A stretch of 60,833 nucleotides of DNA, filler included, from Asterionella formosa (GCA_002256025.1; 15 parts of 15 records of this genome joined end to end with filler, not necessarily neighbours in it); one strand, 5' to 3'. Positions 20,347 to 48,789 are shown, counted from the whole stretch's first letter. Made by a program: numbers and translations. The notes: generated from the letters alone by a model not told the origin.

Positions 20347-23300
20347 GGGAACGATTGGGCAATACAAGCTCCGCCGTTTTGGATGGTGCCTATGTGGCAC
20401 ACATGATCAACAACCTACCTGAAAGCTACAAGAGTTTGGTAGTAGGAAGGTTCGGCCTGGCGCGCAACACGCTAACGGTCGAAGAGATTAAGACAGACAT
20501 CCGGGACTACTACGATCTATATGTCCGGGATGACGTCAAAACGACTAACAAGAACAAGAGTGAACAGGCCTTCTACACGAAAGGGAAGTTCAAAGGTGAC
20601 TGTTGTACGTGTGGCAAGTATGGCCACAAGGCGGCTGACTGTCGCAGCAAGGGCAATAGTGCCGACAAGAAGGAGCTCATTCCTGAGCAGAAAGAAAGGT
20701 GGAAAACGATTAAGTGTTTCAAGTGCCAACGCATGGGACACTAAGCAAGTGAGTGCACTAGTAACAGTGCATCTAAATATAATAAAAACGAAGAGAACAA
20801 CACGACTACATCTACCCAGCAAGGAATGTTCGTCGCCATGTGCGTCGTAATTAGTTACAACGAGGAAGTAAACCTCGCTCGTGACGTCAGAAATCGCTGG
20901 TTGTTAGACAGCGGTGCTACCGTTCACATCTGCACGGACGTGCGCATGATGGAAGACAAGAAACAAGTGAGTGAAACGGTCGTGGTAGGGAATGGAACTG
21001 AGATAGTATCAACTGTCTCTGGTACCATGACCCTGACGACTACAGACGAAGGAAAACGCTTGAAACTCACCGATGTGCTTTATGCACCGGAATTCAAGCA
21101 GAACATCATCAGTGTCTCTAGAATGATCGACAAGGGTAATCAAGTGATCTTAGAGGACGATAGGATGACTATACGAAACAAGAGCGGCTTTCTGACCTGC
21201 AAAAGAGATAAAACTCGAAAACTCGGAGCAATGTATCATTCGAAGGTAATCCGATCATCAAGCAAACGGTGATGGAAATCGAGCAACTACAAGAGAACAC
21301 TACACAACAATCGATCGACGACTACAACGAAAACGATTGGACGAAAGTTGAAGCAAAGAAAACGAACAAGGGAAAGAACAAATGGAATAATCAAAATGGT
21401 GAGTTTGAAAATAATTTTGTGATTGTCGACATCAATGAAGCGCATGCAATGCTTGGTCATGTGGGCGAGAAATGTTTGCACGATTACGGCGAAATTATTT
21501 GGATGGAAGTTGAGCGGCATCATGACAGTGTGCGCAGTCTGTGCGGCAGCGAAAGCGAAAGCACGAGCCGTCCCAAAAACAATGCAAGAAAAATCGACGG
21601 TACCTGGAGAGAGACTGTTTGTGGACATCAGCGGACCCTACGAGAAATCCGCTGTAGGTAATCAGTACTGGGTCATGGCAGTGGACGATTACACAAGAAA
21701 GCGCTGGAGCTATTTCATTAAAAAGAAGAAGGATATCGGAACAGTCATTGAAGTTTTACTATCAAGTTTAGCCGGAGCCGGTCACAAGACAAAGTAGCTA
21801 TGTCCGTTGCGATGACGCAGGCGAGAATACTAAACAATTGAGAAATGTATGTGAAAATCGCGGTATTAAAATGGAATTTACTGCCCCGCACACTCCACAA
21901 CACAATGGTGTAGTGGAGCGCGGTTTTGTCATCGTGCGACAGAGGGCACTAGCACAACACAATGGTGTAGTGGAACACGGTTTTGTCATTGTGCGACAGA
22001 GGGCACTAGCAATGATGCTAAGTGCAAAACTAACAGATAAGTACAAAGGGCTATTATGGGCAGAGGCGGTACATACAGCTACACGTTTAACAAATAGTAC
22101 AGTTAACTCAGTAACTAAAAGAAGTCCCGACGACATGTTCTACGGTGAAATGAATCCAAGAAGGCCCTACAAGTTATACAAGCAATTTGGGCGTGTAGGC
22201 TGGGTTACTGCAAGACACAACATTAAGAAATTAGACGCACGTTCTTTCAAGTGTGTCTTTTAGGGTTATTTGGAGGACCACTCCCAAGATACGTATCGTA
22301 TGTATAATCATGAGACTAACACCGTAATCAATACATGCGATGTTAAGTGGAGCAAGTGGCATGGATCAAACACACCTACGGACGGACTAGGAAAAATCTA
22401 CAAGGACAATGCTAAAGAGAAAGTAGCAGTTCAACCAGAAGCTGAAGTTAATAATGATGGATTAGATGATGATTTCTACAATGAAGATTTACTACCAGAA
22501 GTTTCAGACAATGAGGAAGATGACGACGACGACAAGGATAAATCAACCGCAGACACTAAAAAAGGAAAATCTACCTCAAGGAGTGATGAAATCTCTGACC
22601 TAGAAAAGAGAAAGGCTGTGAAGCAACAAGCAAAGCCTAAATACCCAACTACGCTCCTATCTAAACAGGCAAAGTTGGAACGAGAAATGAAGAAGTTGGA
22701 CTCATCGTATAATCCAACTAAAAGTGTTAAATTCACTCCAGACACTTCACTACCAAATGTGATTGAGGAGGAAGCTTCTTCAAATAAGGAAACTGAAGTA
22801 AATTTCGTATTCAATGCAAGTCTTGCATTGGACCCAGCTTTACCAAATAGTTATAATGAGGCAAGAGGAGTGTGGAAAATAGTTAAGAGAAATGACGTGA
22901 ACAAGCAAGCTCTTAAGACAAGGTGGGTCTTCCATATTAGTAAGGAGGACATGATAACCGGAAAGACAGTATACAAGGCATGGTTGGTTGTAAAGGGATA
23001 TGAACAGATCCCAGGAGTTGATTTTACTGAAACATTCGCTCCTGTTGCAAGTGATGCTACAATAAAAACTGTTCTGGCTGTTACTTTGTACTACGGTTGG
23101 ATAGCGGAAGCAATCGACGTTGAAGCAGCGTTTTCAAATGCTGACGTCGACAAAGACATTTATATTCTTGAGCCCCCAGAAGGATTGACAGGGAATGATC
23201 AGAATACACACATCTGCAAACTAATTAAGACTATGTATGGAATTGTACAAGCTCCAAGATGCTGGTCCAAGACATTCACGAAATGCGTCACCAGCAAGAC

Positions 23301-24315
23301 AGGTATAACGAAAAGCGAAATAGACCCAATTTTGTTTATCTACCGTAACAACAAAGGACAAATTGAAGGGCTGTTGGCAAACTATGTGGATGATGGAATT
23401 ATTTGTGGTACCAGGAATGCAGTGGACTTCATGAAAAATATGATCAAGGAGGATTTTAATATCACAGAACAAGGTCCCCTACGAAAACACTTAGGTGTGG
23501 AATATATGCACAAGCATGACAAATTTAGAGAATACTGGGAAGTACAGCTGAAGAAATTTCGTACTGAAATGCTACTGGAATATGAGATGCGTACTGGTAA
23601 GAAGATAAAGTCTTATGTGACACCAGGAGCACCAGGAAAAACATTAGGAGCCAATAATGGAGAAACTATTAGTATGGAGGCGGAATATCGCAAGATTGTT
23701 GGGAAATTATTATGGTCTACTACTAAGAAAGATTCCCCGGACTGTGCCAATGCAGTACGTGAATTATCTTCGTATTTAAGCTGTCCAGGCGAAGAACACT
23801 GGGATGGAATTTCACGAGTTGTTGGATTCTTATCAAGCAAATTGGACAGAGTTCTCAAGATTCGAAAACCTAAGGAATTACGGGTTATTGCATATGTTGA
23901 TAGTGACTGGGCTGCTAACAATAAGGTAAGCCGGAAAAGTACTACAGGTTTTCTGGTTACCATTGGTGGTGCGTTGATCAGTTGGCAATCAAAGGGCCAG
24001 TCATCCGTTATGCTGTCAAGCACAGAAGCAGACTTTGTTGCGATGTCGCAATGTGCTCAAGAGATCAAATTTATTACAATGTTACTCAACGAAGTGACAG
24101 GTGGCAAAAATATCCTATCAAGCATTTTACATGAGGATAATACAGGTGCAATATTCACAGCAAAGAATCAACAACTTGGAACAAGAACAAAACACATTGA
24201 TATTAAGTTTCATCATGTCAAGAACATGATAGATGAGGGTGAGTTGCATATTGTTTTTCTAAGATCAGAAAACAATCCAGCAGACATTTTGATGAAGAAT
24301 GTCAAAGAGCAGATT
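20347..24315 (+). mobile_element. Ty1/Copia internal region (gag-PR-INT-RT-RH), frameshifted
   Basis: Zinc knuckles CGKYGHKAADC and CFKCQRMGH; PR WLLDSGAT; INT H..GH..C..C, VDISGP, VDD and NGVVER; RT IDVEAAF and YVDD; RH YVDSDWA, HEDNTGA and NNPAD. Copia domain order. Confidence 0.95.
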
Positions 24316-26387: not shown

Positions 26388-27356
26388 AAACAATGAAGGT
26401 TTGGTTCCAGTTGTTTCTTGGAAACGCAGCCCTAGATCCCTTTAAAGTTACTTTGAATCAGAATGATGACATTGCTGACTTGAAGAAAGCTGTGAAGATT
26501 GAATGTGGTGACAATCTTCAAGGTGTTTCCTCAGCGCAGCTCCGTGTGTACCCACCTGGAACTCAAGTGCCGGTCTCTGAGGGAGCTGATGATCCAACCC
26601 TGAGATCTGGAGGTCCGGTTGTTCATCTGAATTGGGGGACTAGCGACGACACTGCGTTTGTGATCGTGGTCATCCAACCTGATATTGGTACGTGTTTTGA
26701 TCTCATGGAATACCTTCTATTGTATTGTAGGTCACAGCTCCTAATACTCACGTATCATTTCGTATCATTTATCCCATACAAATACTCGCTACTGTTGAAA
26801 AGACCAAGGAACGACGAAACGCCAGAAACGAAATGATGAGCAGGAGGAAGTCTCCTTAATGGTACCCACAACCATCATGTCGACAACAATGAAGGTTTGG
26901 TTCCAGTTGTTCCGTGGAAACGCAGGACTATTGCCAGTTTATGTCACGTTGAAGAAGAATGATGTCATTTCTGACTTGATGAAAGCTGTGAAGATTGAAT
27001 GTGGTGACAATCTTCAAGGTGCTTCCTCAGCGCAGCTCCGTGTGTACCCACCTGGAACTCAAGTGCCGGTCTCTGAGGGAGCTGATGATCCAACCCTGAG
27101 ATCTGGAGGTCCGGTTGTTCATCTGAATTGGGGGACTAGCGACGACACTGCGTTTGTGATCGTGGTCATCCAACCTGATATTGGTACGTGTTTTGATCTC
27201 ATGGAATACCTTCTATTGTATTGTAGGTCACAGCTCCTAATACTCACGTATCATTTCGTATCATTTATCCCATACAAATACTCGCTACTGTTGAAAAGAC
27301 CAAGGAACGACGAAACGCCAGAAACAAAATGATGAGCAGAAGGAAGCCTCCTTAAT
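26388..27356 (+). repeat. 496-bp tandem duplication (header exon plus intron)
   Basis: Donor sites at 26688 and 27184 are 496 bp apart; the copies are near-identical after the first ~90 nt. Confidence 0.95.
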
Positions 27357-28382
27357 AAAGGTTTTAGACGAAAGGCTCAAACTTCAATTTGATGACTTGA
27401 AGAAGGAGCGGAATCAAGATTTTGACCAGGAGGAAGCCTCGTCCTTAATATTTCTTATAAAGGAGAAGCTCTACGTTCATTTCAAGCGCTTGGAGGCGGA
27501 TCAGCAAGTGCGAAGAATTCCCAAGACAATGCATATCTACATGATTGATCCGAAAAAAAGTCCTTCTATTCCTACTTTACCTCCTTCTGACCCTACCTTA
27601 CCTCTTTCTGCTCCTACTTTACCTCCTCCTGATCCTACTTTACCCGCTTTTTCCCCAACTGAAAGTTACTGGATTGAAAATGTCCAACCGGTGCGGTTCG
27701 ACGACTGCGAAAGTAGGGGAATCTTATATCGCCCTAAAATTGTAGAGGAAATGATGAAAGTGGTTGAAGATGCCTTCAAGAAAAAGCGTCGGACTGGAAT
27801 CATGATCAAAGGACCGCATGGAATTGGCAAGTCGCACTCACTTGTCAACTTGGTTCGTACGCTGCAATATAACAGCAGCTGCAAGTACCTCGTAACTTTC
27901 ATTCCAGACTGTCAAAAATGGAATGATGTTAACGAGTTGTACACTGCAATCTGTAGATCATTTGGTACTTCCTTACCGGCTCTCAAGTGGAAGATCTGTT
28001 CAAATGATATCGAAAATTCGAGAGATCTGAAAACGTTTGTCGATGCCATTGACTTGATTCTTCAAGATATGAACAAGAAATGGGTCCTAGTTTTCGATCA
28101 GATCAACAGATTGTTTGCTCGACCAGAGCTAAACAAATCTGTTGATCTGGGTTCGCTTCCCTTTCCTTTTAGTGTAATTGACAGTATAATGAAGGGAAAT
28201 CGCATTGTCTCCATCATTTCAGCTTCCGCAAACAACGAGATTGCCTACAGGGAAAGGCATCCAGGGTTTGTTGAGTACAATCACCCATGCCACATGTATT
28301 TGGCAGAACTAAAGCTCGCCTTTAAGGAAGTCGCAGAACGAAGTGACGGCAAAGAAATATTAAAGGTGACTGGTGGGGTGCC
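26393..28382 (+). CDS. Crinkler (CRN/CR)-like protein: two tandem Ubl header domains, Pro-rich linker and P-loop NTPase; exons 26393-26687, 26803-27183, 27299->28382 (3' truncated)
   Basis: Header MKVWFQL...DLKKAVK..C...L..VSSAQLRVY matches the CRN N-terminal Ubl pattern. Walker A GPHGIGKS and Walker B WVLVFDQIN. Two identical 115-nt GT-AG introns fuse the three ORFs in frame. Confidence 0.78.
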
Positions 28383-28822
28383 NNNNNNNNNNNNNNNNNN
28401 NNNNNNNNNNNNNNNNNNNNNNNNNNTTAATTAATTAANNNNNNNNNNNNNNNNNNNNNNNNNNNNNNNNNNNNNNNNNNNNATGCCATGGCTGCTCTTG
28501 GCTGACAGCTGCCAAGTCAAGTACAAACACCACAATGGTGCACAAAAGACAGTCCAATTTTAATCGACTGGCTGATACTTAGTCGTTGTGAGACTCATCT
28601 TTCTGCAATTGGGTGGACTTTGATCATTGCTTCGTTCAAAGCACAATCAATTCAAATGCTATCCAGTGAAACAGCCAATGAAAACAGTTGTGGCGAAAAA
28701 GCTCAGAACAGATCAAGAGATCTCATAGGAATTAAAATAACAACAGCAGGGCATATATGATGCACTGCTCCTTGTGTCGACTAGCTATATTTGATCATTA
28801 TCATATTTCATACTATACAGGT

Positions 28823-29203
28823 ACTTGAAAGTGTTATGGAAACTGAAGATAATTGAAGAATAGTAACTTAAATGAAGGCTTGTAGACTCTGTGTTTCGGA
28901 ATAAAGTGAGCTAAATGTTAAATGATAAAAGTAGAACAAGCTAGGAGTTGTCGCCAGTTGACAACAGTCAAGTTGGAGAGACAGCAAATTATTAATAGTG
29001 GAGTTACCACGATGGACATGACTGTTGTGGGACCGGAACTTGTTAATAGGGTGCGGAGTAATCACGATGGACAGGACTGTTGTGGGACAAGAAAATAGTA
29101 ATAGAGGAGAAACAACAGTCTTGGCAGGACTGTCAAGAGACAGGAAGTTAGTAGTAGGTGGAGTATCCACGATGGGCAGAGAGGTATAAGTTGGTATTTA
29201 ACT
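28823..29203 (-). repeat. 3' LTR of the full-length Copia (381 bp)
   Basis: Matches 35747-36057 apart from a ~70-bp indel and point changes. Abuts the PPT on one side and CAGGT (28818-28822) on the other. Confidence 0.92.
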
Positions 29204-32200
29204 CTCCCTCTCAGCTGAGCAAGGGAGGCAAAATGTCACCAACCACAGACGAGTTTGCGAATAGCTGTAAATTTCTCAGCAACAAGACCTTTAGTAAAAA
29301 TGTCGGCGGGGTTGACTGCAGTGTCAATTTTTAGGATGCGTAGCACGCCAGATAGGACATATTCACGGAACCAATGGTAAGAAACAGCAATGTGCTTGGT
29401 ACGGGGAGTCATTTTTGGAAGATTGGCTTGGGAAAGATATGCACTGTTGTCTTCATAAATGGTAGCCGGCCATGTAAAGTGCAGTGGAAGCCTCAGTAAT
29501 GATGTGGCGAAGGGGAATGAGGTCACGGCAGCTACTGGAGAGCGCCTGGTATTCAGCCTGCATGGTAGAAACGGCGATTGTGGTTTGTAGTTTAGAAACC
29601 TATAAAACGGCACAGCCAGCAAGAGTAATGACATAGCCAGTGCGGGATTTGGCGCAAACAGGATCATTCGAGTTTTCAGTTCCAAAAAGACCAGCAAAGT
29701 CACTATCGACAAAACAGTCGATTTTAAACTCCGATGTAGGTGTAAACATGATACCCTCGTTTAAACTACCACACAAATAACGGCAAATTTTCTTAAGAGC
29801 CACTTCATGTGAGGCACGCGGACAGTGAGAAAATCGAGCACACTGGTGCACAGCGAAGGCAATGTCTGGGCGAGAGTTTGTTGATAAGTAGAGGAGCATG
29901 CCCACAACAGAGCGGTAGTTCCATTTTTCACGGGCAAGAAGACCATTAGAATCAATACCTAAAGGTTCTCGTGTTGCAGGAGTAGGCGAGGAAGACCCGT
30001 GAACAAGACCAGTTTGTTTCTAAGATCCGTGTGATAAGTCCCAGTTGTGTTAACTTGAGGGAACCAGTAAGAGATGACCTGTCAATTTGGATGCCCAAAA
30101 ACGAGGCAAGGTCGCCCTCACGAGTAAGTTCAAGCTCGAGGGACAAATTGGTAATCATGGCATCAATAAGGGACTTGTCCCGACCGATGAGAATGGAGTC
30201 ATCGACATAGTTAAGGTATACCATATCAGCATGGATAAAAAAACAGGGGTCAAGCTCAGATTGGCGGAACCTGCAATGTCCAAGAAACTCTTTAAGTTTA
30301 AGAAACCAGGTACGCAGGGCCTGTTTTGTAGTACCATAGAGAGATTTATTCAGCTTCATGACCATAAGGTCACCGAAGTCTTTGGGCGTCGTCTCAACAT
30401 AGAGTTCTTCTGTAATGTCGGCCTGACAAAATGCATTCGAAAAATCAATTTGTTGTGTCTCAAGGCACAGAACCACGGACATGACCAAAAGCGCACGGAC
30501 AGTAGACCACTGGACCACAGGAGCATAGGTTTCAAAATAGTCAATATCTGTAGATCCCCGCTTACACAAAACCTTGCTTTGCATTTGCGAACACGACCAT
30601 CTGGAAAGAGCTTGCGCTTGAAGGCCCACGTGCCTGGTAGAACCTTATGGTTAATAACCGATGAACGGGGCACAAGCGTCCAAGTATTCTTTTTGGTTAA
30701 AGTAGTGACTTCAGTGACCATAGCTTCACGAAACAATTCGGAATCAGACCCAGACATAGCCTCGTGATAGCGAGGATTATCAGGATCCATTTTACGTGCC
30801 ATGGCGGCGTAGATAAGAGGATCAGAACACTCAAGAAGTCCAGTGACAGGGTCGGTCATTACAGCACACATATAGGCCATTGCAGAATCAGACGCACTGA
30901 CTTCAGAACATTCAACAAGACCAGCAAAGAATGCATTGGAAAGGTATCCTCCTGGTACAAAACGAGTGGGCCCGATTCCACGTGTAGAACGAGTACTGCG
31001 GCGGAAAGAGAGAAGGGATGTTTGGAGGGAAAATTGCAATTTTAGGAGATGCAGGCTTTTCTGGTGGAAAAATAGGAATGGATGCTGGAAGTGGCGGTGG
31101 CGGCATCGTAGCTGGAATTATGATGGGAACAGGAGGAGGAACAAAAGGAAGAGAAACAAATTTGGACTCTCTCTGATTCGGTAGTTCATCAGGAGGTAGG
31201 TTCAAACGGGGAAAGATGTTAGACTCTTTTAGTAGGAGCCGGCGATGGGAAATGTCATCTGGTTCTAGCCACTCATCAGCAAGTGTGAAGTTTGTGTGTT
31301 TGTCAAATTTGGTCTCAAACCGGGACTCATGAAAGATAGTTTCCCAATTTTCCGGAGGGTCGTCGGATATATTTAGCGAGGAAACGGTCGAGAAAAGATC
31401 ATCAAAGATGACATGAAATTGCGGAGAAATATGTCCTGTTGTCAGATTAAGTACCAAGGGAACATTGGTACTATGAACATGGGAGATGCCAACAAAGATG
31501 GCGCGGTGGGAGCGAGATTGCCAGCGTGGAAGCTTTTGTCCATTTTGTAATTTTGGGTCAAGGACATAACAAGGACAACCCCAAACGTGTAAGTCCTTCA
31601 ATCCGTGACGTGGAAGGATGGATTTCGTAAATAAGTCCATGGGAGATTGTCCAGTCTTGGAACTGGGCACATGGTTGTACAAATGTACTGCATAGTCCAC
31701 CACCATAGGCCAGAGAGCAGGGTCAGCTGTAGAAGGCCAACGAATGGAAGCATGTAGCATCATGACACGGGCCATGTTGGAAACAGTGCGAATACTGCGT
31801 TCTGCAACAACATTTTGATGGTGAGCTCCAACACCACAAAATTTTATAATTTGCCCTTTAGTTTGAATGACATCGACAAATTCACTGGCTCCAAAGCTGC
31901 CATTGTCAGTAGTATATTTACCAATCAAAACTCCAGAATTACTATAGCTCCAATTTTCAAAAGCCATTTTAGCTTGCAGAGTTTCTAGGACAGTGAATCC
32001 AACTTGATGCTGAATGAAAAGTAGGCCAGATGAGTGATCAGTAAATATGCATCCCCCTTTGTACATATCGGTTGGTGAAGTCTTTCCTCTAGAAGTGTAC
32101 AACGACCAGGGACCTTAGAAACAAAATGGTCAACAGAAACACCGGAGCCGGGATAAAGGTCATTTGCTTTCACTCCCCCTTCTTTTTCCGGTGTCGGGGT

Positions 32201-35200
32201 GGACATGGATGCCTGTAAGGGTTTACGGTGCGCCTTCCCGTATTCACAGGCAGCGCATTTTGGAGGAGTGCAACGCGAAGCCGCTCGAATTTTCTGGGAT
32301 GTACCAAATGATGGCTGACATAGAAGAAATTGAATGGTGTCTGAGCAGAGGTGGCCAAGACGGAAGTGCCAGTGAAGATATTCCTTTTGAGCCTCAGTAA
32401 GGTTTTGGTTTGTTTCGTCTGTGACACATAAATTAAGGGAGGCTTCTTTGTNNNNNNNNNNNNNNNNNNNNNNNNNNNNNNNNNNNNNNNNNNNNTTAAT
32501 TAATTAANNNNNNNNNNNNNNNNNNNNNNNNNNNNNNNNNNNNNNNNNNNNAGAAATTGAATGGTGTCTGAGCAGAGGTGGCCAAGACGGAAGTGCCAGT
32601 GAAGATATTCCTTTTGAGCCTCAGTAAGGTTTTGGTTTGTTTCGTCTGTGACACATAAATTAAGGGAGGCTTCTTTGTTGCACACAGATGAAGCACGAAT
32701 GCCATGACTGGTAGGAAGAGAGTTTACGGGATCATAGGGAATAGTCAAGGTGGGTGATCCATCAATTACAAGGCGTGTGCAATCAGCGGTTACCTCGAAA
32801 ATTCCCACATGGCCATTTTCTTTGTCGAAGATACGTTGAGGAGATAAAAGGCGTTGTTTGCATTGAGGCACATAATATGCAGTAAGATGAAGTGTCAAGA
32901 GGCGACCAGAGTCAGAAAGGAAATTCCCCTGTAAAGTGCCGATGCCAGCAACTGTGAGACCAGAAGCAATGCCACCAAGATGAAGGGGAATGGAGGGTTG
33001 AAGAATGGGACCAACAAAATCGGTGGAATAGGCAGAAACAGGACGTGAGGCACCACTGTCCCAAATGACGGTGAAATGCTGTTCAAGGCCACCAAACAAA
33101 GAGATGGGGTCCATTTCAATGGGACGAAAGAAGGATGAAGGCAAAGGTGGGGATGTGGGAAGAATGTTGATGGCGGGAGTGCAGATGGAGTCAAGAATGA
33201 CAGAAAGAGGTGAAAAATCAAGAAATGAATCTTGGAAGATGGTGTAGGCAAAGAGTGATGGGGCCATGATGGGAGGACTAGAACGTAGAATACTTTGTGT
33301 ACCAGTGGGGAGAAAAATGCATAAGGAAGACAGAAAAGGAGTAGAATAAGGGATGGTAGAAAAAGAAAAAGAAATCCCAGGTGACCCAGGCGAAGGATCA
33401 GGAGGTTTAGGAGGAAAGAAAAAAGAAAGAAGGGAGCAATATCCGACAACAATGGAGAACAAGGACTATGCAAGGTCACCATGTTATCATATGCGCCACC
33501 AAGAAACATTGCAGTAAACCACATGTTAGTGATGATCCCACCAATAATCAACCATACTGTCGGGTAGCCCTGTAATTTACTGTCGGTGACACGCCGACAA
33601 CCAAAGATATCAAACATTGGGAAAATACCAACAGAGACGCATCGCTGTTGGCAAGTCTGTCAAAAGAAGCAAGGAGCACCAACCTTGTGAGAACAATTAG
33701 ACGGATTCATAGGACTGGTAGCCAAAGGGGTAGTAGGGGTAGTAGGGTTCAATGATAAGTCAATGGACAAAGTCAAAGGAACAAGAAAGTGCGAGTCAGT
33801 GAGATGAGGATCGGAAGGCGACATAGTAATGGTGGTAGAGTTGGAAAGGTCTGGCACAGTACCACCAGTCCAACAGAGGGCATCTGCATGAGTGTTATGC
33901 CCAAGGGGCGATATAAAATCATTATTAACAATCAGAGACAATTTTTTATCGGCCGACCAAGTGACATGAGAGTCATCACAAGTAGCAATAAATCCAAAAC
34001 TTCTAAATTTAGGAACAAGAGCATTGTTTTCATTTTGAGAGACGGTTTCGCAAGCCAACTTCGCTGTAGGACTCTTAGTGTCCTCAGTGAATTTCACAGT
34101 GGGTGAAATGGCAACAGTGTTGGGATCACGAGCAATGTGAGTAGCATCAGTATGCGTTTTGACCCAATGATTGCACTTGGTACACCAGTAAAAATGTGAC
34201 ACATGGTGGAAGATCGTTGTTGGAGCACAAGAAGGTGGAGGAAGGTGTGTCCACTTACTAGGACTTGGACAATTGTTTTTCATGTGCCGTTTCTTTCCAC
34301 AATGATAGCAGATGCTATTAGAAAGTTTCAAGGTGACAGAATCATCGGGAACTGCAGTGCCAGGTTTGATTGAGTTGCGGAGGGACTTCAACTCTGCAAC
34401 AATGGCTTGATATGCAGCATTGGAAGAAGCCTGGAAAGCGGCGGGTAGGGAGTCTGGCTGAGACTTGGGAAGACTTAAGCCAGCAATCCAGCAACCATCG
34501 TCAAGTAGACGCTTGTAGTTGCGGAGAGCGATGTTACACAATGCATTTACACCAAGATCTGTTGATTGGAAGCGAAGCATTTCAGCATTGTCTTTTCCAA
34601 TGAGGCGTTTTCCTTGGATGTCAATTTCTCCAGAGAGAACATGGAATGCACTGCAAAAACCCTCAGTGCTGCAATATAGAAACTTGTTAACAAGAATAAT
34701 TGAAGCAGTTTGATGAATGGAACCACCACCAGCCATTAGATTGTAGTTAGTTTGCACATCCTCAATGAGGAGTCGAACATTTTCCCCTAGATAATCCGAC
34801 AATTTGATGTTCTGAAACTTGGAGTGAATATCGACCATGACTTGAGCAGATCCAGAAGTATCATCATCAACCAGAGCAAAAAATGACAATAAACCAGGAC
34901 CTCGATTTCCATATGATGCAAGACGTGCCCGAAGTCCAAATAGAATTGATTCATCAATATGGGACACAATTATATTCTACAAATGTGAAGAGTCTTCATG
35001 AGCTTGTTCATCGAAAACTTGATCACGAGAAAGGGCAGAGGCAGTAGTTTCAACGCCTAATGCATCAAGAATAGGAGCAGGTTCTGGCGCAAGGCAGTGA
35101 TCAATGTAAGCCTTCGCTTCAGCAAATGAGATGCGTGTGTAGTTTGTACTCATATCCCACACATTTCCTTCATAGTCTGGAGCATGGAAGAACGTGTCAA

Positions 35201-35746
35201 CTCCATAGTTTTGAGCAGCAAGGAGAAGAGCTTGACAGAGTCCACTGAGAGTGTAGTCCTTGAGGGGATCATTAGCATTGGGTCCCCGGTAGAGCCGTTT
35301 AGGTTCTTTATTGCAGTATTCAAACAGACTGAGTCGTTCCATAGCATCACCAAGCCGAGCTTGATAAGGTGACCACTGAGGGCAGCGGGCGACAGAAAAG
35401 TCATTGTTAAGGGTTCCACCAGAGTAACCAGAACCGAGGCGATCAACATGTCCGAGCTTGGTAGCCATTGTAACAGAAGATAAAAAAGGAAGTTTTCAGA
35501 AGGAAAGAAAGAAAGAAAGGGCTAGTCGAAGAAGACTACCGAGGGAAGTAATGGAAATGAAAGAAGGAAGTATTCAGAAAGAATGGAAGGGCCAGTCGAA
35601 GAATAACACCAATGGAGGTAAAGTAAATGGGAGAAGGAAGCAATTAGAAAGAGAGGAAGGGCTAGTCAAAGAAGACTACCGATAAAATTAACATAAAAGA
35701 GAAGAATAAAAGAAATATGATGTTGGAAGGTTTGGGCTCAATAACC

Positions 35747-36057
35747 ACTTGAAAGTGTTATGGAAACTGGAGATAATTGAAGAATAGTAATTTAAATGAA
35801 GGCTTGTAGACTCTATGTTTCGGAATAAAGTGAGCTAAATGTTAAATGATGGAGTTACCACGATGGACATGACTGTTGTGGGACCGAAACTTGTTAATAG
35901 GGGGTGGAGTAACCACGATGGACAGGACTGTTGTAGGACAAGAAAATAGTAATAGAGGAGAAACAACAGTCTTGGCAGGACTGTTAAGAGACAGGAAGTT
36001 AGTAGTACTAGGTGGAGTATCCACGATGGGCAGAGAGGTATAAGTTGGTATTTAACT
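35747..36057 (-). repeat. 5' LTR of the full-length Copia (311 bp)
   Basis: Followed on the minus strand by PBS-like GGTTATTGAGCCC; flanked by CAGGT (36058-36062). Confidence 0.92.
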
Positions 36058-36614
36058 CAGGTGCATGGATGACTCAATCCGCCCTTTCATTAGATATGCA
36101 GCCATGTTGCGATAATTCTACAGGACCTATAGGACTGGTAGTCTGTTGGTCATCATTCCCGCATTGTATATACCAGTAGGAGTCATGTATGCAAGCATGC
36201 TGCGATAATTCTTACAAGACATAAAAATTTGGGACCTTGGGGGTTACACTTCCGTACTGTGTACAGGGGGGGAAGGGGTTGCATGCATGAGCAACTACTC
36301 CGGTATAAACTATGATCTTTAATCAATCAATTTTGATTTGTTTATCCTATAACTTTGATCATAACATATTGATCATATGATGAACGGTGTCGTTGATGAG
36401 AAAATGAACAATCAACATTTATTTTCAAGAATCAGGATTAATTGATCTTAAAAATATGATCAAATGATCCTAAGCACATGAGCATATTCAGTTTTTCGCT
36501 GCAATATTGTGGTANNNNNNNNNNNNNNNNNNNNNNNNNNNNNNNNNNNNNNNNNNNNTTAATTAATTAANNNNNNNNNNNNNNNNNNNNNNNNNNNNNN
36601 NNNNNNNNNNNNNN

Positions 36615-39600
36615 CGACATGCATTGGCACAAATTGGAGATATCTTCTTTACAAAGTATAAGATTTTTCCAACCATGGATCTGTATTCACTATGTAGAAC
36701 AGTGTGGGCATCATTCTTGGACAAACTTGTACCTGGCAATCCGGGAGTTGGTGCAATTGCGGGATAACGTCCAAAGAGATTCTTATAGTCTTCAAACATT
36801 CCTTCAACGAAATCCTCCATAGTAGATTCAAGAAATCTTCCATCAGCATCCTCTCCCCAGTCATACCAAACTCCTAAATGTTTCTTGATTGGTCCGAGTT
36901 CCTTTATGGTGAAATGCTTCTTGGCTTCAGCCTTAAGCCAGTCAACATCGGCTTGTTCTCCTGCAACAATGCAGTCATCAACATAGATACAAACAATTAG
37001 AACCAATTTCAAATCACGTTTCAAGAAGAAAATGCATGGATCCACTTTGCTCTGTTTCATTCCAATGAGAATCAGACGCTCCACAAGTTTCTTGTACCAC
37101 TGTCGCGCAGCCTGCACCGTTCCATACATGGCTTTACTTAGAAGAATACAATTTTCTGAGACAACCTTGTTGTCTTCAAAGCCAAACTTAGCAACGCCTT
37201 CAGGCCATTCAAGGTAGATGTCTTCCTCTAAGTCTCCTTCAAGAAAGGATGCTTCGACGTCAATGACCTCCAAAGTCCATGTCTTCTTGTGCATGGTGAT
37301 TGCAAAGACAACTCTGATACTTGTATCCGTAGCCACAGGTGCAAACGAGTCGGTAAAATCAACACTGGGACCACACGTGCCTTATAGCGTGTAGTCAAGT
37401 CTTGTTCCTACTTTTTCTTGAAGACCCATCGACTCCCAAGCGGCTTCTTGCGTCCATGCAATTCTGATCTTGGGAATTTTGACCAGACTTTTCGTTTTAT
37501 AAAATTATTAATTTCACTTTTGATTGCTGGAATCCATTTTTCTCTGTCATCTGCTTTCAGTGCCGCACTGTAGGTCTTGGGTTCACCTGGATCTGATGCA
37601 AGTGTAGAGCTATAGATGTAATGAACTTCCATGGATGAAGTAGGCTTAGAATCCAGATCATCATCATCATCTACAATAGCTAGTATGCAATCTTCCAGAA
37701 CGTAGTAGTGTAGACATCGTTGGAGCAGTTTCATGACCAAGTTTCTTGAGCTCTCGTTCAGCTCTTGTAATAGCAGGTTTTGAAGTATTTGAAGCTTCAT
37801 TCCTCCCTGCTTCAGAGACCTGCAAGTCATTAAGAGTCGAAAGTGATCCAGTCTCATCATCTGGTGGGATGACAGTCGGAGTTGGTGCAACAGGTTGGTC
37901 AAGTTCCTCCTCAAACTCAATTTCATCAATCCCAGTCTTGAACATGGTCAGATCATTAGTAGGTTTCGTTTCTCCATGCCATTCAATCCATTTTACATCA
38001 CGGCTCTGAATCACCTTCTTGGTTATAGGGTTAAATAGTCGGTAGGTATCACCTGAGTGGTTTTCAGAGTATCCAATCATGACACATTTAATTGCTTTAT
38101 CATCAAGCTTGTTCACAGGAGTTCTTATGGCGACATATCCAATTCGTCCAAATGGGATCAAGTGTTCATAGATTGTAGGTTGTTTCCCATACCATAGCCA
38201 ATCAGGGCACTTGATATTTCTTGAATTCAAAACCACATTTGTCACTCGAGTCATTGTGTTGGCACATTCTGCCCAAAGAAGTCCTTGAAACTCATCATTT
38301 AGCTTTGTATTGATCATAGCAGCACAGCTTCTATCACGTATGGTGACAAACTTGCGCTCAACAACACCGTTCTGATGAGGTGTATTTGGTGCTGTGTATT
38401 CAATCTGAATACCATGCTTGTTTCATACAGATGACAAATTTTCGAGATTTTCACCTGCATTATCACATCGTAGGTACTTGATGACATATTTTGCTGCAAA
38501 TAGCTTGATAAGTAGCTCGTCCACAATTTTGGATAGTAAATTCTTCTTCTTAACAAAAAACTCCATGACTTTCCAGAGAATTGATCGACCACAAGTATCC
38601 AGTAATTGCTTCCCACAATGGACTTTTTGTACGGCCCTGAAGTGTCCACGAAAATCCGTTCACCGGGTAGTACAGCCTGTACAGTCAACACTTTTGAAAC
38701 TGCCTTTGATTTCTTCTTTGCCTTAGAGCATCCGTCACAGGACCGGAGGGTACCAGCAAGTTCTATCTTCAGTTCTGTGAACGTAGCATGTAGTGCAGCT
38801 TCCCCAGCAATACGCCCGTAGACATCGTGTGCCTCGTTGATATCCTGTGACTTCATTTTGTCCTCCCCACTCATAACTCTATGGGTGTTTGTAGACAAGT
38901 TTTTGGTACTATCGGCCCCCTGGGACAATGGGGCAAGAACCATGGATACGACATCGGCATAACTTGCGCGACTTGCTTCCTTTAAAATAATAGAGAACTC
39001 CATTGGTCTCTCTGTTAAATGAAATATGTCCTCCACGACCTTTCTTAACTGTCATTGTAGACCCTGTGACTGAAAGGTCAAAACAGTCACGGATTAGGAC
39101 GCCAAAACTGACGATGTTCTTGTGAAACTTAGGCGTGTACAGGACATCCTTCAATGTCATAGTCTTCTCTCCGTTGGTGAGCTTGATGTCACCGCGTTTT
39201 GTGCATTTAATTTCCGAGCCATCGCCGACGACAACTGTGACACTGACTGGGCGTACATTTGTCATACCGACGTCACTCATTGTGATATGGGCGGTAGCTC
39301 CAGTATCAGCGAGCCAATTCTCCTGTGGGGCAATAGAGCGAGGAGCAACAGCAGAGGCACAAAACTCTTTATTATTAAATTTTACATCACAATCATCAAT
39401 AATTTCCTCGCAAATACTGACAAAAGTCCACTCTTTATCGTCGTTCTCGTTGTACTTGTCATTCATATCTTGTTTCTTTTCGTTTGCTTCGATGTCTTCG
39501 TAGTCAATTGTACACATGCCAACAAACATGCCGGTCTCTTTCGTTGTAGTACGTTCTCGTTTGGGTTCAGGGCAATCTTTTGCGATATGTCCCGCATGCT

Positions 39601-40560
39601 TGTTGCAATTGAAACACTTGACGCCTTTCGGAGGAGGCCTGTTTCCTTCGCCGTGTGTCTTGTTCTTGACTCGACAATCGGCTGCCTTGTGTCCTTGCTT
39701 GCCGCAAGAGCGGCAGAGTCCTTTGAACTTAGTTCCAAAGGCAGCAAGAGCAAGTTCGCCATCCGACTTTTCGTTCTTAAACTTGCGTTTGAAGAACGCA
39801 CGTATCTTGGCCTTAAGGTCTTCTAGTGTTAGGGAGGGCATAGCCTCAACCATTGTCACCACTTCTGAGTACTCCTTAGGTAGTTTGTCAAGTATGTGGG
39901 CAATCATCTCGAGATCCTTCTTTTCGTAAGCAGAATCAATCGTCGCCATTCGATTCCTCAACAACTCGAGTTGGATGAACCACTCATCTGGGTCTTGCGT
40001 CTTCCCCTCACAGATGCACTTGTTGAATTGTCCTGAAAGTTGGATTAAGTCGCTTGTAGCATTAGGAACATAGCGAGCCTTGAGGTAGGTCCAAGCAAGG
40101 AATGCATCGCCGTCTTGATGATTCTTTGTCTTGGCTTGGTTAACCAAACCAAACGCAATCCCAGTGCAACTCATAATTAGGAGCTGGTATGCGCGATCGT
40201 TCATCTCGTAGATCTTCTTGACATCGTCTTTGTCTGTAGTTTCGTAGACAGCATCGCTGCATGGATTGGTATCCTTCATGTAGGCATTCTTGAATCCTCT
40301 TGTCTTGGCTAGTGCAAGTGTCTTCACACTCCACTCATGCCAATTGGCGTCCTCGCCATCAAACTTCACAAGGCGAATGGTCTCACCTTTGTCTTCAGTC
40401 ATGTTGCAAAACGAAGTTGATCCGCTTGCAAGCGTGTTAAATTCTTCTGCAGTCTGACTGCAATGCTAGCTCTTTCTAGACAAGCTCAGTGTATTAAAAC
40501 CTTCTGTTCTAATCCCACCTTATTGTGAGCTTATTTGATCTATCTTGTAATCGTTCACAT
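36615..40560 (-). mobile_element. Copia 5' leader-gag-PR-INT-RT, decayed
   Basis: ORF 38909-40402 has two zinc knuckles and WLADTGAT. INT FVDTSGP and WAECANT; RT IDVEASF and YVDD. Frameshifts and a small deletion in RT near 37370. Confidence 0.95.
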
Positions 40561-40660: not shown

Positions 40661-43600
40661 ATGATGAAAAACTTCTTACATTCAATGTTCGCCTACCTAC
40701 AATCGAAGAAGCAAACTCCCACACAATTCATTGGTTGACACCACGAATTCCCAGCAACTCATCTGAGTTGTTGAAGCAGTCATCTAGAAGGGGACGCGGA
40801 AGCATTGTTAAAGAGGAGCCAACTCTATGGGAGAAACGTCTTGGAAATTCAACTGAGATTGTAACCAAGAAGACACTCGAAGCAACAACACAGCTCTGCA
40901 CCCAGACAGTTGAAATGGAGAATAGAGAAGCACCCAGACAGCATCGAAAGAAGCGTCTAATTCCTCTTCATCCTAATCGACTTGATGGCAGGACAGATTC
41001 GGATACGTTTTTCTCATCTATCAAGTCCATCCGGAACTACTCATGTGTGCAACTCTTCATTCATATTCCATCGCAATTTCTGTTTGCACGTTGTATGTTT
41101 AGAGAGGCACATTCACATGGAGCATACCAGGATTTTGTAAGTGAGGTTGGAGCTCCCAACATTTTGTTGACTGATAACTCTCAAACTCAGTCTGGCACAT
41201 TGTGGATCAAAACAAGCCAGGAAAACATCACAAAAGAAATCCATTCTGTCCCACACACAACCAAAACCAGAACCAGGCAGAGCTCAAGATCCGGGACATT
41301 ATTCCTGAACCTCTAGATGAACCAGAGGATCACAATCTTATTCGTCTAGTTCATTTTGCTCCTACTCCTCAGATCATTGTTCATTTTGCTCCTACTCCTC
41401 AGATCATTGAAACATCAAAGGGTCTAGAGGAGCAGGGGGGGAAAGAGGAGCAATGCACTACAACAGAAGTATACAACAAGCAATGCACTACAACAGAAGT
41501 AGACAACAAGCAATGCACTACAACAGAAGTAGACAACAACATATCAAAAAATCCACCATCCAACACCGATGATGTTCAGTTCGACTTTGATCCACTTGAC
41601 GCAACACACGACATTGAAATGTGTGATGAGATCAATAATGAGCTAGCTGAAGAGCATACAGAGGCAACAAAGATGAATGGTTCCAGGGTAACTGATATTC
41701 GAGCGCATTGCTGGAAGGCCGGGCAACTTGAGTTGGAGGTGCACTGGGATACTGAAAATGTCTCCTGGGAATCATTTCAGGACTTGAAGCTTGACCATCC
41801 AAACATGACAGCACAATACATTGTAGACAATAATGTCAGTCGTTCCAAACGCCTGGATAGAGTCATGCAATGGGCAAAGAAAATAGTTCGAGACATCAAA
41901 CGAGCTGTCCGAAGAATTGCAAGGTTATATGAGCTTCATTTTGATGGATGTGATCAGGTGTACACAGTGAGGCGTGCCGACATAAGAAAGAAGAAGCATC
42001 CTAAGATTAGGAAGCAAATTCTCAAGTATGGCGTTGAGGTCCCACGAAATGTCACCCATGCAATGGAATTGGACAAGCAAAGTGGAAACACATTCTGGCA
42101 AGAGGCAATCAAACATGAAATCTCCTCACTTGTCAAAATGGAATGTTTTGAAGTTAAGAAGCCAGATTTTAACCCTGGAGTCGGATATCAATGGACAACA
42201 CTGACAGTGATCTTTGACGTCAAACAAGATCTACGGCGCAAGGCAAGACTTGTGGCTGGCGGACATCTAGCTAGTTGACGCACTTGACAACAATATTTAC
42301 TCTTCAACTGTGAAAGGCATAAGTGTTAGAATGCTACATGTGATTGCACACAAGCAGAACTTGAAGCTGCTTTGTGGCGATGTTGGAAATGCTTACGTCA
42401 ATGCATACACTAATGAGCTAGTATACTCCCGTGCTGGACCAGAATTTGGAGAGGAGTTGAGGGGATTGATCATTCTCATCCGAAAAGCACTATATGGTTT
42501 GAGATCAAGCTCTGAGCGTTGGTGGGCGCATTTTGCGGACACGATCCGGGGAATGGGGTTCCAGCCAACTAGGTACGACAAAGATGTGTGGTACAAGATG
42601 AGAAATGATACTTCACACTATGAATATATCTGCACCCACTCAGTTGACTTCATGATAGTGTCAAAAACTCCTGAAGTAATTATGGAAGGACTCAAGCAGG
42701 TCTATACAATCAAGTCTGAAGGTCCTCCAGAATATTATCTTGGGAACGACTTCAAGAAGGACAAGAAGGGCAGGTGGTGTTTTGGATGCAAGAAATACAT
42801 ACAAGAGTCAATTGCAAGAATTGAGGTGATGTTTGGTGTGCAACCCAAAAGTACAATTCCAATGAGTGCAAATGATCATCCAGAACTCAATGACACCACA
42901 CTACTTAGTGATGACGAACATCGAAAGTTTCAGATGTTAATTGGCACGTTGAATTGGGTAGTAACAATTGGGAGATTTGATGTCGCACACGCCACAATGT
43001 CATTGTCAAGATTCTCTGCATGTCCAAGAAAAGGACACCTTGAGCGGGTATTGAAAGTGTTTGGCTACCTCAAGAGGAGGCCAAATAGGCGAATTGTTGT
43101 GGATTCTAGGTCGCCTGACTTCTCAGGATTTGAGGAAGATTTTTCTAAAGACTACGCAAGTATTCTTGGTGAGGACTACCCTGAAGCATCTGAGGAGGTT
43201 GACTGCAACCTACCAAAGCCATTGGTCAATGAGTTGGACATAACTGTGTTTGTTGACTCAGATCATGCCCATGAAAAGATCACACGCAGGTCAGTGACCG
43301 GTTTGATTATATTCGTTGGAAGAACACCAGTATTCTTTATGAGTAGGCAACAAGGAGCAGTGGAGACATCAACATACGGCGCTGAGTTTTGTGCTATGCG
43401 CATTGCAGTTGAAGAAACCATAGCTATTTGTTATATGCTACGCTCAATGGGAGTGCGGGTGGCTCATGCCTCATACCTGTTCGGTGACAATCTTGGAGTA
43501 GTTCAGAATGTTACTATCAAGGATAGTTTGTTGAAGAAGAAACATGTTGCCATCTCATATCACAAGGTGAGGGAGGCGGCGGCATGCGGAATTGTACATC

Positions 43601-44028
43601 CAGTCAAGATTGATGGAAGGTATAATTTCGCAGATGTGCTCACCAAGGCCCAGACTAACAAGGTGTTTGCCATGTTAGTTGGGGAGGTGATGCATGGATA
43701 GGGATTAGGGATTTGCATATTCTATGCAAGTATTATTATGGTCAATCAAACTATTGGATTATTGATTCAAGAGGAGTGATAAATACGGGAACGAGATTGC
43801 TCGGGTTCTCCGGGTAATTGGTGACTTACTGCTTAGTAATGCAACTGATGAATCAGATATCCACAGTATTGATGGGTACTGGTACAACGTGGTTGTACCA
43901 TCTATGTAGATACATACTACTAACCTAGTAAAAAGTACTGCTGGAACGGCCTCAAGTCACAACTTGTTGGACCTACCATTACAGCAGGGCACTAACAGGC
44001 CAATTCGTCTTTAGATAGCATCTTATCA
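40661..44028 (+). mobile_element. CoDi-type Copia 3' half (partial INT, chromodomain-like module, RT, RH, PPT, 3' LTR)
   Basis: Motifs TDSDTFFS, LLTDNS, KYGVEVPR, FDVKQDLRRKARLVAGGH, DVGNAYVNA, FVDSDHA...RRSVTG and NFADVLTK. PPT aagaggag. Internal ~30-bp tandem repeats at 41349-41409 and 41448-41540. Confidence 0.93.
43777..44028 (+). repeat. 3' LTR (252 bp) with TGATAA...TTATCA termini
   Basis: Starts immediately after the PPT; 6-bp terminal inverted repeat. Confidence 0.75.
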
Positions 44029-46058: not shown

Positions 46059-48078
46059 CTAGGATATGACACATCGTTCTCCCTTGTACACCTCGCGACA
46101 AGTCTCGATTTTATCCAGGGCGTACCCACGCATTGCAATCGCTTCGTCTTCACCGCCTTTTAAAGCAACACGCTTCCACCCAAGATTCGAGATAAAAGCG
46201 TCAGTAATGGTTTCATCAGCACCCTCTTTACATTCAATTTCAAGGGCACCATCCAATTGCAACGATTCAATCACAATAGTACCAGGACCCTTGATAACCA
46301 AGGAAGAACGTTTGGAGATGTGCACTTTTTCAGGAGTGGGAAACATGGATTTATAATCACCAGGACAGATTAATGCATTCGGTGCGATCACAACTTGAGG
46401 TCCACCAACAATCGAGATGCCATTGTACGTCTCGAGGTCATCGTCTTCAATTTTCACTCCAATCGATCGTAGGAAAATGCGTTGAGCAGCATATTGATCT
46501 GCTTCGCCTGTGGCTGCGACTTGAGGATGAAGTCCTGCTTCTTGCAGCTTGACACCGTCGGCAGTGGAATTCTTGACGGGAGAATAACAGATTGCTGCCT
46601 CTACCATGGTGAATCCAACCTTTTTGTCGTCCGCCAATAACCATGGGACGTCCTGCATCATGCATTCGAGCCGAGCGGGCCTGATAAACGTGGTTTTGGA
46701 CTTGTCCGTGTACTTCGGGTTAATGAATTCGGGCATGATTCCTTTTGACTTTTCCAGGAACTCCAGGTACGAGTCAGTTCGAACGAGAAGTTGATTGGTA
46801 TTGCCAGGAAATGGCGAGTATCCAGTCTCAGTGTCTTCGACATCACCCTTGGAATATCTAGAGGCTCTGAGGAGAGGATCAAGCTGATTGTACTCCACAT
46901 TGACAGTTCTGCAATGGCAGGGAGAAAATGTGAGAACGCAGAATGGAGAATCACATTTAACACGGTTGGTTCGCCGCTCAGAAAAATTAGAGTGATTATA
47001 TCAACTCATGTGATTTATCAGAAGTTTGAATGTAGTCCGCAAAGCAGCAGCATCTAACGGATATGGTACGTAGACCATCTTCTTACCTTTCTGCCCCTGT
47101 AACCTTATTGGTGAGTTTAGTGATGGCACCGACGGCTTCTTTTGCTTTATGAGGAATGGCCAAGGAATTCATTGCAAGATCTAAAGAAAGCGATACACCC
47201 AATTTCAGGGGAAGTGTGTGAAATGCAAGCCCATTGGTGTCTTGAAAAAATGTCATCCACTTGATTCCGTTGCTGGCCCACTTCTTCGCGACGTCATGGG
47301 TGTATAGTAAGGCATGAATATCCCCATGACCGTGAGGTTTGGTCATGATCTTATAAGGAGCTTCCAAGGCAATCATTGCGTCATTGTTCAACAAAGCAGG
47401 GACACCCTTGCCTTGCAGAACAATTGTAATTTGTTCCTTGTCCATTCCAAAATAATCATTCTCTACTAGTCCCAAGACAGTGCCATCATTGGTTTCATGA
47501 CTTGTCATGATGCAGAGCGGAAGTTTCGTCTTCTTTCCGGCGTATTTCTTCTGAACAGCCAAAATGTACTCAATATAATACTGTAGATAGCACATCTCCG
47601 TTGCCAATTCAGTGGGCAGTCCAACCTTGACTTGGCTATAACCCAGTCTTTCCCCAAGTCCGCCAGCCACTAAGACAAATCCAACAGAGCCAAGTTCAGC
47701 CTTCCCCAACGCTTCGGTATCCTCGTACTCTTTTGTACCAACGGTAAATGTTTTACCAATAGGCACGCTAGGCTTCCAATCATCCAGGGGATTTAAACCC
47801 TTTGCACTCTTTCCGAGCAGCTCTCTGGATCGCTCAATATATCCAGCGAGACCAGTGGGATAGGATTCATCTAGCTCTTCCAATTGTTCGAGAAAGATTT
47901 TCTTGAGTGCATCTTGTTCGTCACTGTCTGGCCAGTCTTCGAACAAATGGTCCTGACAAAGATCATCTGAACAAAGCGCCGTCACCAATTCTCGCTGCTT
48001 TTCGGTACAGCATTCTGGCAGACAAGGCAAATTCACGGGGAGATTCGCGTTGCTACCACTGCCAAGGATATTCCACAT
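46059..48078 (-). CDS. USP: UDP-sugar pyrophosphorylase; exons 48078-47087 and 46908-46059
   Basis: Motifs LVAGGLGERLG, TKPHGHGDIH, FFQDTN, NVEYNQLDPLL, FPGNTN, PEFINPKY and RLECMMQD. A 178-nt GT-AG intron joins the two ORFs. Confidence 0.94.
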
Positions 48079-48789
48079 TGTGTTTGCCTTATCTTGCAGC
48101 CAATGCTCGGCAACAATCTACCGGTAATCTATCGTGAGCAATATAAGATTGTGGGCACTTATTTAGAACTTGTTTCCGGAGGCGGCCCCGATGCATCAGA
48201 TGAAACCGACCAGTAAAACATGATGGTACGACCTGGTACCAGGTACCAGGGTACCGGTACTGGTACCTGGTCTTACCTTGTTATTGAAAGCATGCATATT
48301 ATGGCTTCCCGTAGACTAAAGTCTACATACCTGCAGTACCAGGTAACTGTACCTTTGATGCAGAAGTTTTTACGAGGTCCCTCGCAAAAAGTTGCCATTT
48401 GCACAACGAGGTATCCGGTACGGTACCTGATTCTCAACCTGGTACCGCAAGAGCTCACACGACTCCAACTCGCAGCATTTTGCATTCTTTGGATTTCATT
48501 CCTAAAAAAACCTTTCCGAGTGCGTGTGGTGGAGCCAGCCGACTTCTGAATTTTTTGAGAGGCAGCGGGCACCTGTATGATACCGGTACTCTTGGTACCA
48601 GGTATGTCGATACTGCCTATTAATATCTGAGTACCGGGTACCGGTAGGTAGCTATTGTGCACCGAATATGCGCCGNNNNNNNNNNNNNNNNNNNNNNNNN
48701 NNNNNNNNNNNNNNNNNNNTTAATTAATTAANNNNNNNNNNNNNNNNNNNNNNNNNNNNNNNNNNNNNNNNNNNNTATACTGATCAAAG

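What the first reader, a model, noticed from the sequence alone, without database searches (positions are those of the whole stretch)
28818..36062. Full-length Copia whose TSD implies non-canonical AG...GT LTR termini and a half-tRNA-type PBS
Seen: the LTR copies share sequence out to ACTTGAAAG on the left and TTTAACT on the right. Exactly outside those ends lies a perfect 5-bp duplication, CAGGT (28818-28822 and 36058-36062). In element orientation the LTR is therefore 5'-AGTTAAA...TTTCAAGT-3'. The PPT (GAGAGGGAG) abuts the AG, and GGTTATTGAGCCC abuts the GT. Forcing TG...CA ends gives mismatched flanks (GTACT vs GGTGC). Established: LTR integrases nearly always process CA ends, AG-starting LTRs are mainly known from insect errantiviruses, and GGTTATGRGCCC is the hemivirus internal-tRNA-iMet PBS. 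Inference: a diatom Copia lineage with altered integrase end specificity, which TG..CA-based LTR finders would miss.
Basis: partly seen in the sequence, partly recalled or inferred. Interest (0 to 1): 0.72.

Follow-up and report, generated by a model that had tools for sequence, protein, structure and literature searches.

The report
Diatom Copia clade with AG-starting LTRs
This is a decayed Copia-type jumping gene of a diatom whose end repeats read AG...GT instead of the usual TG...CA, a trait shared by at least six related families in the same genome and likely due to an integrase that prefers DNA ends finishing in T.

Summary
Observation confirmed. The LTRs are 28823-29203 and 35747-36057 (minus strand), 5'-AGTTAAA...TTTCAAGT-3', flanked by CAGGT. 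The element is split over two contigs. Uninterrupted copies of the host repeat carry one CAGGT, so the halves are one insertion with a 5-bp duplication. Of 26 family copies, 25 start AGT and 25 end AGT; 4 of 6 solo LTRs have perfect TSDs, and 7 of 8 3' LTRs pair by TSD with a 5' LTR. Five more families start AG and end GT or CT (14 of 16 assessable solo LTRs with TSD in one). AG-starting elements group together on the integrase tree; the RT tree is unresolved. The host is a diatom. The PBS matches the anticodon half of host tRNA-iMet, with one extra base. PBS and PPT abut the LTRs, which implies blunt, unprocessed ends as in Ty1. Published non-TGCA Copia ends that I saw all start with T; AGT...AnT is known from errantiviruses. 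The integrase preference is inferred, not shown. This scan noted AG...CT diatom Copia twice before, on other DNA. New variant of a known kind.

The parts
28818..28822 (.). Target-site duplication CAGGT (ACCTG in element orientation), left copy
28823..29203 (-). 3' LTR, 381 bp, AGTTAAA...TTTCAAGT
29204..29212 (-). Polypurine tract GAGAGGGAG, abutting the LTR's first A
   Evidence: same register in AG- and TG-starting relatives
29236..29760 (-). RNase H piece (IYEDN, ADIFTK motifs read by eye; no Pfam hit)
29600..31117 (-). Reverse transcriptase in three frame-shifted pieces, YVDD motif
   Evidence: RVT_2 E=2.7e-28 on 29955-30644
30912..32451 (-). Integrase: HHCC finger and first catalytic D in one frame, TDNG...AERS core and SH3-like domain in another
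   Evidence: gag_pre-integrs E=2.9e-5 (below cut-off), SH3_retrovirus E=3.5e-9
32452..32551 (.). Artificial spacer between two contigs; 32325-32451 equals 32552-32678 (127-nt assembly overlap)
32552..33465 (-). Protease region (WDSGAS motif)
   Evidence: Pol_BBD E=0.0064, below cut-off
33660..35495 (-). gag-like region with a CX2CX4HX4C knuckle, broken by an in-frame stop; no Pfam hit
35732..35746 (-). PBS GGTTATTGAGCCCAA: 14-nt complement of the host tRNA-iMet anticodon arm plus one extra T, abutting the LTR's last T
35747..36057 (-). 5' LTR, 311 bp (73-bp internal deletion), AGTTAAA...TTTCAAGT
36058..36062 (.). Target-site duplication CAGGT, right copy

Best explanation
A decayed Ty1/Copia retrotransposon of a diatom with genuine 5'-AG...GT-3' LTR ends and a 5-bp target duplication, one of at least six related families with AG...CT or AG...GT ends, whose integrase likely joins blunt cDNA ends that finish in T rather than CA. 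Shown: the termini, TSDs, empty sites, domain order, complementarity of the PBS to host tRNA-iMet, and zero spacer at PBS and PPT. Inferred: (1) minus-strand synthesis is primed by the 5' half of tRNA-iMet ending in the anticodon stem, as in hemiviruses; (2) primer removal and PPT cleavage give a blunt cDNA already ending at AG...GT, so no 3' processing is needed, as in Ty1; (3) the terminal base pair was flipped from T:A to A:T at both ends (TGTTGAAA...CCAACA-like to AGTTGAAA...CCAACT) without any shift of register, and some families then changed the U5 penultimate C to G; (4) integrase preference co-evolved and holds the 3'-terminal T in place, convergently with errantivirus AGT...AnT ends.
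For: Family A: 25 of 26 start AGT, 25 of 26 end AGT; empty sites. Family E, AGTTG...CAACT: 14 perfect TSDs among 20 fetched copies (3 were 3' LTRs, 1 lay at a contig edge, 2 missed). Whole elements with perfect TSD: family C CCATG (AG...GT) and family G CCAGG (AG...CT). Family D AGTCAG...CTGACT: one solo LTR with TSD. Family F AGTAACG...ACAAGT: one cross-contig pair and one whole element at 4 of 5. The PPT ends ...GGGAG in both AG- and TG/TA-starting relatives, and the PBS abuts the LTR in both CA- and GT/CT-ending families, so the register is unchanged. The constraint is symmetric (3'-T at both ends), which points to integrase rather than RT. Integrase tree: 8 AG rows fall on one side against 10 rows that start with T or end in CA, SH-aLRT 96, quick LG+G4; within the own genome the split has support 100. 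Ty1 needs no 3' processing, and an earlier study cited there found specificity limited to A:T ends on either strand (PMC8487063, passages).
Against: No biochemical test. RT and RNase H trees do not recover the AG group; the AU test neither rejects nor shows it (p=0.25). One origin means one independent contrast: the 10 integrase columns that separate AG from T rows may only reflect descent. L190 reads AG...CA inside the AG group and single copies deviate (L017 ACT start, L035 ACT end, L208 TG start), so tolerance may be broad. Termini of the MAG-derived relatives rest on PPT/PBS register in single contigs, without TSD, and TG-called L175/L185 could be read in another register. Under physiological metal, Ty1 integrase needed CA for concerted integration.
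Confidence: 0.68

Rival explanations
1. The integrase is simply permissive (any terminal A:T pair, either way round). The AG...YT/GT ends are kept by inheritance and by RT/RNase H constraints at PPT cleavage and primer removal, not by a new integrase preference.
For: Ty1 specificity reported as A:T ends on either strand (PMC8487063 passage citing earlier work); penultimate base varies C/G at U5; AG...CA (L190) and TG...GA (L192) occur; diatom and plant Copia ends are labile.
Against: Six families with integrases about 45-70% identical to the query family's keep AG and a terminal T. Relatives use the same PPT with a TG start, and other families the same PBS with a CA end, so RT does not need A or T there. 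RT would not impose the same base on both ends.
Confidence: 0.24
2. The ends arose by a register shift or loss of 3' processing: an ancestral TG...CA cDNA with extra terminal bases (CA+AGT) is now integrated untrimmed.
For: U5 reads TTTCA-AGT in families A and C and ACA-AGT in F; the PPT ends in AG, so a shifted cut would give an AG start (L175 could be read so).
Against: AG families have the full GAGAGGGAG and then a further AG; families D and G have no CA at that register; CAACA-type ends already contain an internal CA, so one terminal substitution explains the pattern; Copia-type ends abut the PBS in CA families too.
Confidence: 0.06
3. Assembly artefact or chance: two unrelated contig halves, or TG...CA ends mutated after insertion.
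For: The halves are separate contigs in a roughly size-ordered concatenation.
Against: Empty host-repeat sites with one CAGGT; 127-nt overlap and four colinear copies; dozens of independent insertions share the ends; a contig from another run spans the flank-LTR junction (X2 record 14).
Confidence: 0.01

Closest known systems
CoDi elements (Ty1/copia-like elements of diatoms; Maumus et al. 2009, PMC2806351; Filloramo et al. 2021, PMC8147415)
   Same: Diatom host, PR-IN-RT-RH order, about 7.1 kb (published range 5.2-8.1 kb), 5-bp TSD as in CoDi1/2; non-TGCA ends occur in CoDi3.2, 4.2 and 4.3.
   Different: Every terminal motif listed in supplementary tables 10 and 11 of PMC8147415 begins with T (TGCA, TACA, TGTA, TATA, TTCG, TGAG, TGGA, TGAT). 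None is AG...GT or AG...CT. Placement in a CoDi group was not tested.
Insect errantiviruses (gypsy, ZAM, Idefix subgroups; Metaviridae)
   Same: AGT/AnT terminal trinucleotides (PMC5408687, PMC3601003, passages).
   Different: Gypsy superfamily with integrase after RT and often env; sequence-specific targets. Here the order is Copia, no env was seen, and target preference is weak. The likeness is convergent.
Hemiviruses (Drosophila copia, 1731, yeast Ty5, Volvox Osser)
   Same: PBS complementary to the anticodon stem-loop of initiator tRNA, with the primer end at nucleotide 40 (PMC1181622 passages).
   Different: Non-CA ends; a recurrent extra base in the PBS; kinship to copia or Ty5 not tested.
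Plant non-TGCA Copia (Tos17 TG...GA, TARE1 TA...CA, AtRE1 TA...TA, lotus TGCT/TGGT/TACT/TGTT)
   Same: Copia elements with non-CA 3' ends, including CT and GT.
   Different: All start with T; the 50-genome survey calls the first T the only invariable base. Here that T is replaced by A.

Membership tests
Ty1/Copia (Pseudoviridae) | gag-PR-IN-RT-RH order between two LTRs | tested here: met
   Pol_BBD (weak), gag_pre-integrs, SH3_retrovirus, RVT_2 in that order on the minus strand
Ty1/Copia (Pseudoviridae) | PBS after the 5' LTR, PPT before the 3' LTR, short TSD | tested here: met
Canonical TG...CA LTR elements | 5'-TG...CA-3' termini | tested here: not met
   0 of 26 family-A LTRs; forced TG...CA register gives 0 TSDs
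CoDi (CoDiI/CoDiII, groups 1-7) | diatom host | tested here: met
   silicon transporter PF03842, 7 matches over cut-off, best 575 bits
CoDi (CoDiI/CoDiII, groups 1-7) | RT clusters with a named CoDi group | not testable with these tools
   no named CoDi reference came from any call; the Maumus supplement was not readable
Hemivirus | PBS complementary to the anticodon arm of tRNA-iMet, ending at nucleotide 40 | tested here: met
   14 nt with a one-base bulge here, 20 nt in family E copy L039, against tRNA L056/L072
Hemivirus | half-tRNA actually used as primer | not testable with these tools
   needs strong-stop cDNA mapping
Errantivirus | Gypsy domain order (RT-RH-IN) | tested here: not met
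Errantivirus | AGT...AnT termini | tested here: met
   families A, C, D, E, F; family G is AGC...GCT

The most novel reading that the evidence does not exclude
A widespread, overlooked Copia clade of diatoms made one ancient integrase specificity switch from CA-3' to T-3' ends, convergent with errantiviruses and traceable to a few core residues. Most of the 114 metagenomic homologues that fall in the smallest clade holding all AG rows (their ends are unknown) would share it, giving a natural comparative system for how integrases read DNA ends.
Probability: 0.35. Interest if true: 0.62.

Novelty: new variant of a known kind. Interest (0 to 1): 0.45.

Why it matters
The terminal CA is among the most conserved features of LTR elements. 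In Copia surveys that list exceptions, the first T was the one base that never changed. A multi-family Copia clade with the terminal pair flipped, living beside TG...CA relatives in one genome, gives matched integrase/end pairs for testing what reads the terminal base, and a second origin of errantivirus-like ends. In practice, motif-filtered LTR finders would likely under-call these families in diatom genomes (inference, not run); one family alone gave 157 first-look candidates in this assembly.

Tried and rejected
Single-sequence fold of the integrase core: pLDDT 34.5, unusable. PDB sequence search: no integrase hit, so no residue could be mapped onto an intasome. IMG/VR: 8 pattern hits, none with a pol match, and no relatives by alignment. 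The one metagenome scan, made with a single protein, returned only 5 near-identical loci. U5/PBS RNA folding: nothing beyond shuffles (z=-0.46). The census collapsed 3' LTRs by a faulty key and was redone; the end-overlap list is valid only for the 127-nt row. The tree is the quick one, as the careful search did not finish; 3 short rows and the loci without an integrase hit were left out. Literature searches: 'AG...CT', 'AG..CT', 'AGT...ACT', 'AG...GT' with LTR and retrotransposon gave 0 papers; searches gave no listing of AG-starting Copia. Repbase, GyDB and most subscription papers were not searchable, and the Maumus 2009 and bioRxiv supplements could not be seen, so prior description is not excluded. 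The RNA run X15 covers the LTR but does not show transcription.

Full report
Observation. The sequence is as described. The window is a chain of roughly 3.95-kb contigs joined by N44-TTAATTAATTAA-N44 spacers, and the element spans two of them, which share an exact 127-nt end overlap. That made chance pairing a live concern. Three tests remove it. First, the element sits in a multicopy host repeat (about 300 first-look candidates), and uninterrupted copies read straight through one CAGGT (13 examined: 11 in clean register, 2 printed off-register but with the same single CAGGT). Contigs from three other sequencing runs show the same empty junction at 28822, three show the LTR-PBS junction at 28823 (one prints a variant at 28825), and one spans flank and LTR. 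Second, two metagenome copies and two older genomic copies are colinear across the gap. Third, among 26 family copies with both ends, 25 start AGT and 25 end AGT; 4 of 6 solo LTRs have perfect 5-bp TSDs (a further one, L018); and 7 of 8 3' LTRs match exactly one of 12 5' LTRs by TSD, ours included, against about 0.09 expected. No other offset gives a solo TSD.

The copy itself. Domain order is Copia. It is decayed: gag has stops, pol lies in seven ORF pieces, and the LTRs are 97% identical with a 73-bp deletion in the 5' LTR. The host is a diatom: 7 silicon-transporter matches over cut-off. The best-sharing public runs include algal, freshwater and riverine samples.

A clade, not a one-off. 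A genome-wide PBS search gave 65 matches against 5 for the reversed control. The bases before the PBS sort into families ending CA and families ending GT or CT. Multi-copy alignment and PPT register give the 5' ends: A AGTTAAA...TTTCAAGT, C AGTTGAAA...TTTCAAGT, E AGTTGAAA...CCAACT, D AGTCAG...CTGACT, F AGTAACG...ACAAGT, G AGCCG...TTCGCT. TSD support: E 14 of 20 fetched (16 assessable); C and G one whole element each; D one solo LTR; F one cross-contig pair and one whole element at 4 of 5. A TG...CA relative in the same genome has a perfect TSD too (L149). In the own-genome integrase tree, 31 rows including all AG-labelled ones split from 12 rows including all T-starting ones with support 100 (quick tree). 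Nineteen loci from prokaryotic MAG records, presumably eukaryotic contaminant contigs, add AG-starting relatives (L178, L180, L190) and TG-starting ones, called by register only. With them, 8 AG rows remain on one side against 10 others in the integrase tree (96), but RT and RNase H trees mix L175, L176 and L185 into the group at weak support (AU p=0.25). The smallest clade holding all AG rows contains 114 of the 120 listed metagenomic homologues (FastTree 92); these were chosen by similarity to the query and their ends are unknown.

Priming. The nuclear tRNA-iMet (L056, L072; three G-C pairs in the anticodon stem and a GATCGAAA T-loop, signatures recalled) has the arm TTGGG-CTCATAA-CCCAA. The PBS is its complement starting at nucleotide 40, the hemivirus arrangement (PMC1181622, passages; ICTV profile PMC8515867, whole text). 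Our copy has an extra T after the sixth base, as do 11 of 13 distinct family-A 5' LTRs; 7 of 8 family-E copies have an extra T or A at the same place.

Mechanism. PBS and PPT touch the LTRs with no spacer, so the cDNA is predicted to be blunt and to end at the integrated termini, as for Ty1, which needs no 3' processing (PMC8487063 and PMC2939329, passages). The PPT ends GGGAG in AG- and TG-starting relatives alike and the PBS register is the same in CA- and GT/CT-ending families, so the change is a substitution of the terminal pair, not a shift. The joined 3' ends are ...CT (U3) and ...CT or ...GT (U5). A symmetric, conserved terminal T points to integrase. Ten integrase columns separate AG rows from the others, one of them seven residues after the catalytic glutamate (S/M against Q/T, C in one row). 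From memory, that position matches HIV-1 K159 near the viral DNA end, but I could not map it structurally and it is confounded with descent. A merely permissive integrase is the main rival. Target choice is weak, with some excess of C at position 2 and G at position 4 among 27 TSDs.

Comparison and novelty. Maumus 2009 (outline, part 1 of 3 of the results, passages; supplement unavailable) reports TG/CA missing in three CoDi families. Filloramo 2021 (passages; supplementary tables 10 and 11 read whole) lists them as TACA/TGTA and TATA (one TTCG), and every motif there starts with T. LTR_retriever (bioRxiv 137141, passages) calls the first T invariable in 50 plant genomes, and lotus (PMC9804982, passages) lists eight Copia variants, all T-starting. 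AGT/AnT ends are described for errantiviruses (PMC5408687, PMC3601003, passages). Passages of PMC2774666, PMC5445492, PMC12477816 and bioRxiv 2025.10.24.684338 added nothing on AG ends. I found no AG-starting Copia in the searches named under Tried and rejected, but Repbase and GyDB were out of reach. Earlier notes of this scan report AG...CT diatom Copia in this genome and in another; they are leads, not support.

Verdict. Real, lineage-wide, and apparently outside the published range of Copia termini, but a variant of a well-known kind of element with an untested mechanism. Interest 0.45.

Noticed in passing
window 35732-35746; L005, L044, L047, L135 and others: A one-base insertion recurs at the same PBS position (after GGTTAT, opposite the anticodon) in several families, with different bases (T, A, C, G). 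Its persistence suggests that plus-strand synthesis copies only about six primer bases and may add an untemplated base.
   Followed up: partly
L149:2034-2052 (G000:C13250); L181, L188, L192: The TG-starting sister group has a different PBS, CGCTTCC(C/T/A)CTGCGC, complementary to the D-arm of the same tRNA-iMet, which would imply a still shorter 5' tRNA fragment as primer.
   Followed up: partly
L190 (MAG contig): Apparent AG...CA termini inside the AG integrase group; single collapsed copy, no TSD.
   Followed up: partly
window 28483-28822 and 36058-36514: The host of the insertion is an unidentified repeat at least 3 kb long, with about 300 first-look candidates and 90-94% identity between copies.
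   Followed up: partly
L150, L162 (G000): A related family starts TA after the PPT; L031/L070/L076 end in TA before a PBS variant.
   Followed up: no
L039 (G000:C1872): A family-E LTR with a PPT-like tract before it and a PBS after it, suggesting tandem elements sharing one LTR.
   Followed up: no
window 21772-24315, 36617-40465, 41178-43701: Three other Copia fragments on separate contigs (RVT_2, rve_3, gag and protease hits); termini not examined.
   Followed up: no
L175-L193: Nineteen loci in bacterial or archaeal MAG records encode Copia pol, presumably eukaryotic contamination of those bins.
   Followed up: partly
window, every ~4.06 kb: Artificial N44-TTAATTAATTAA-N44 spacers join separate contigs; ORFs and repeats that cross them are artefacts.
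   Followed up: yes
window 8145-9635, 27295-28380, 47086-48117: Ordinary host-like fragments: saccharopine dehydrogenase/epimerase-type, AAA domain, UDP-glucose pyrophosphorylase.
   Followed up: no
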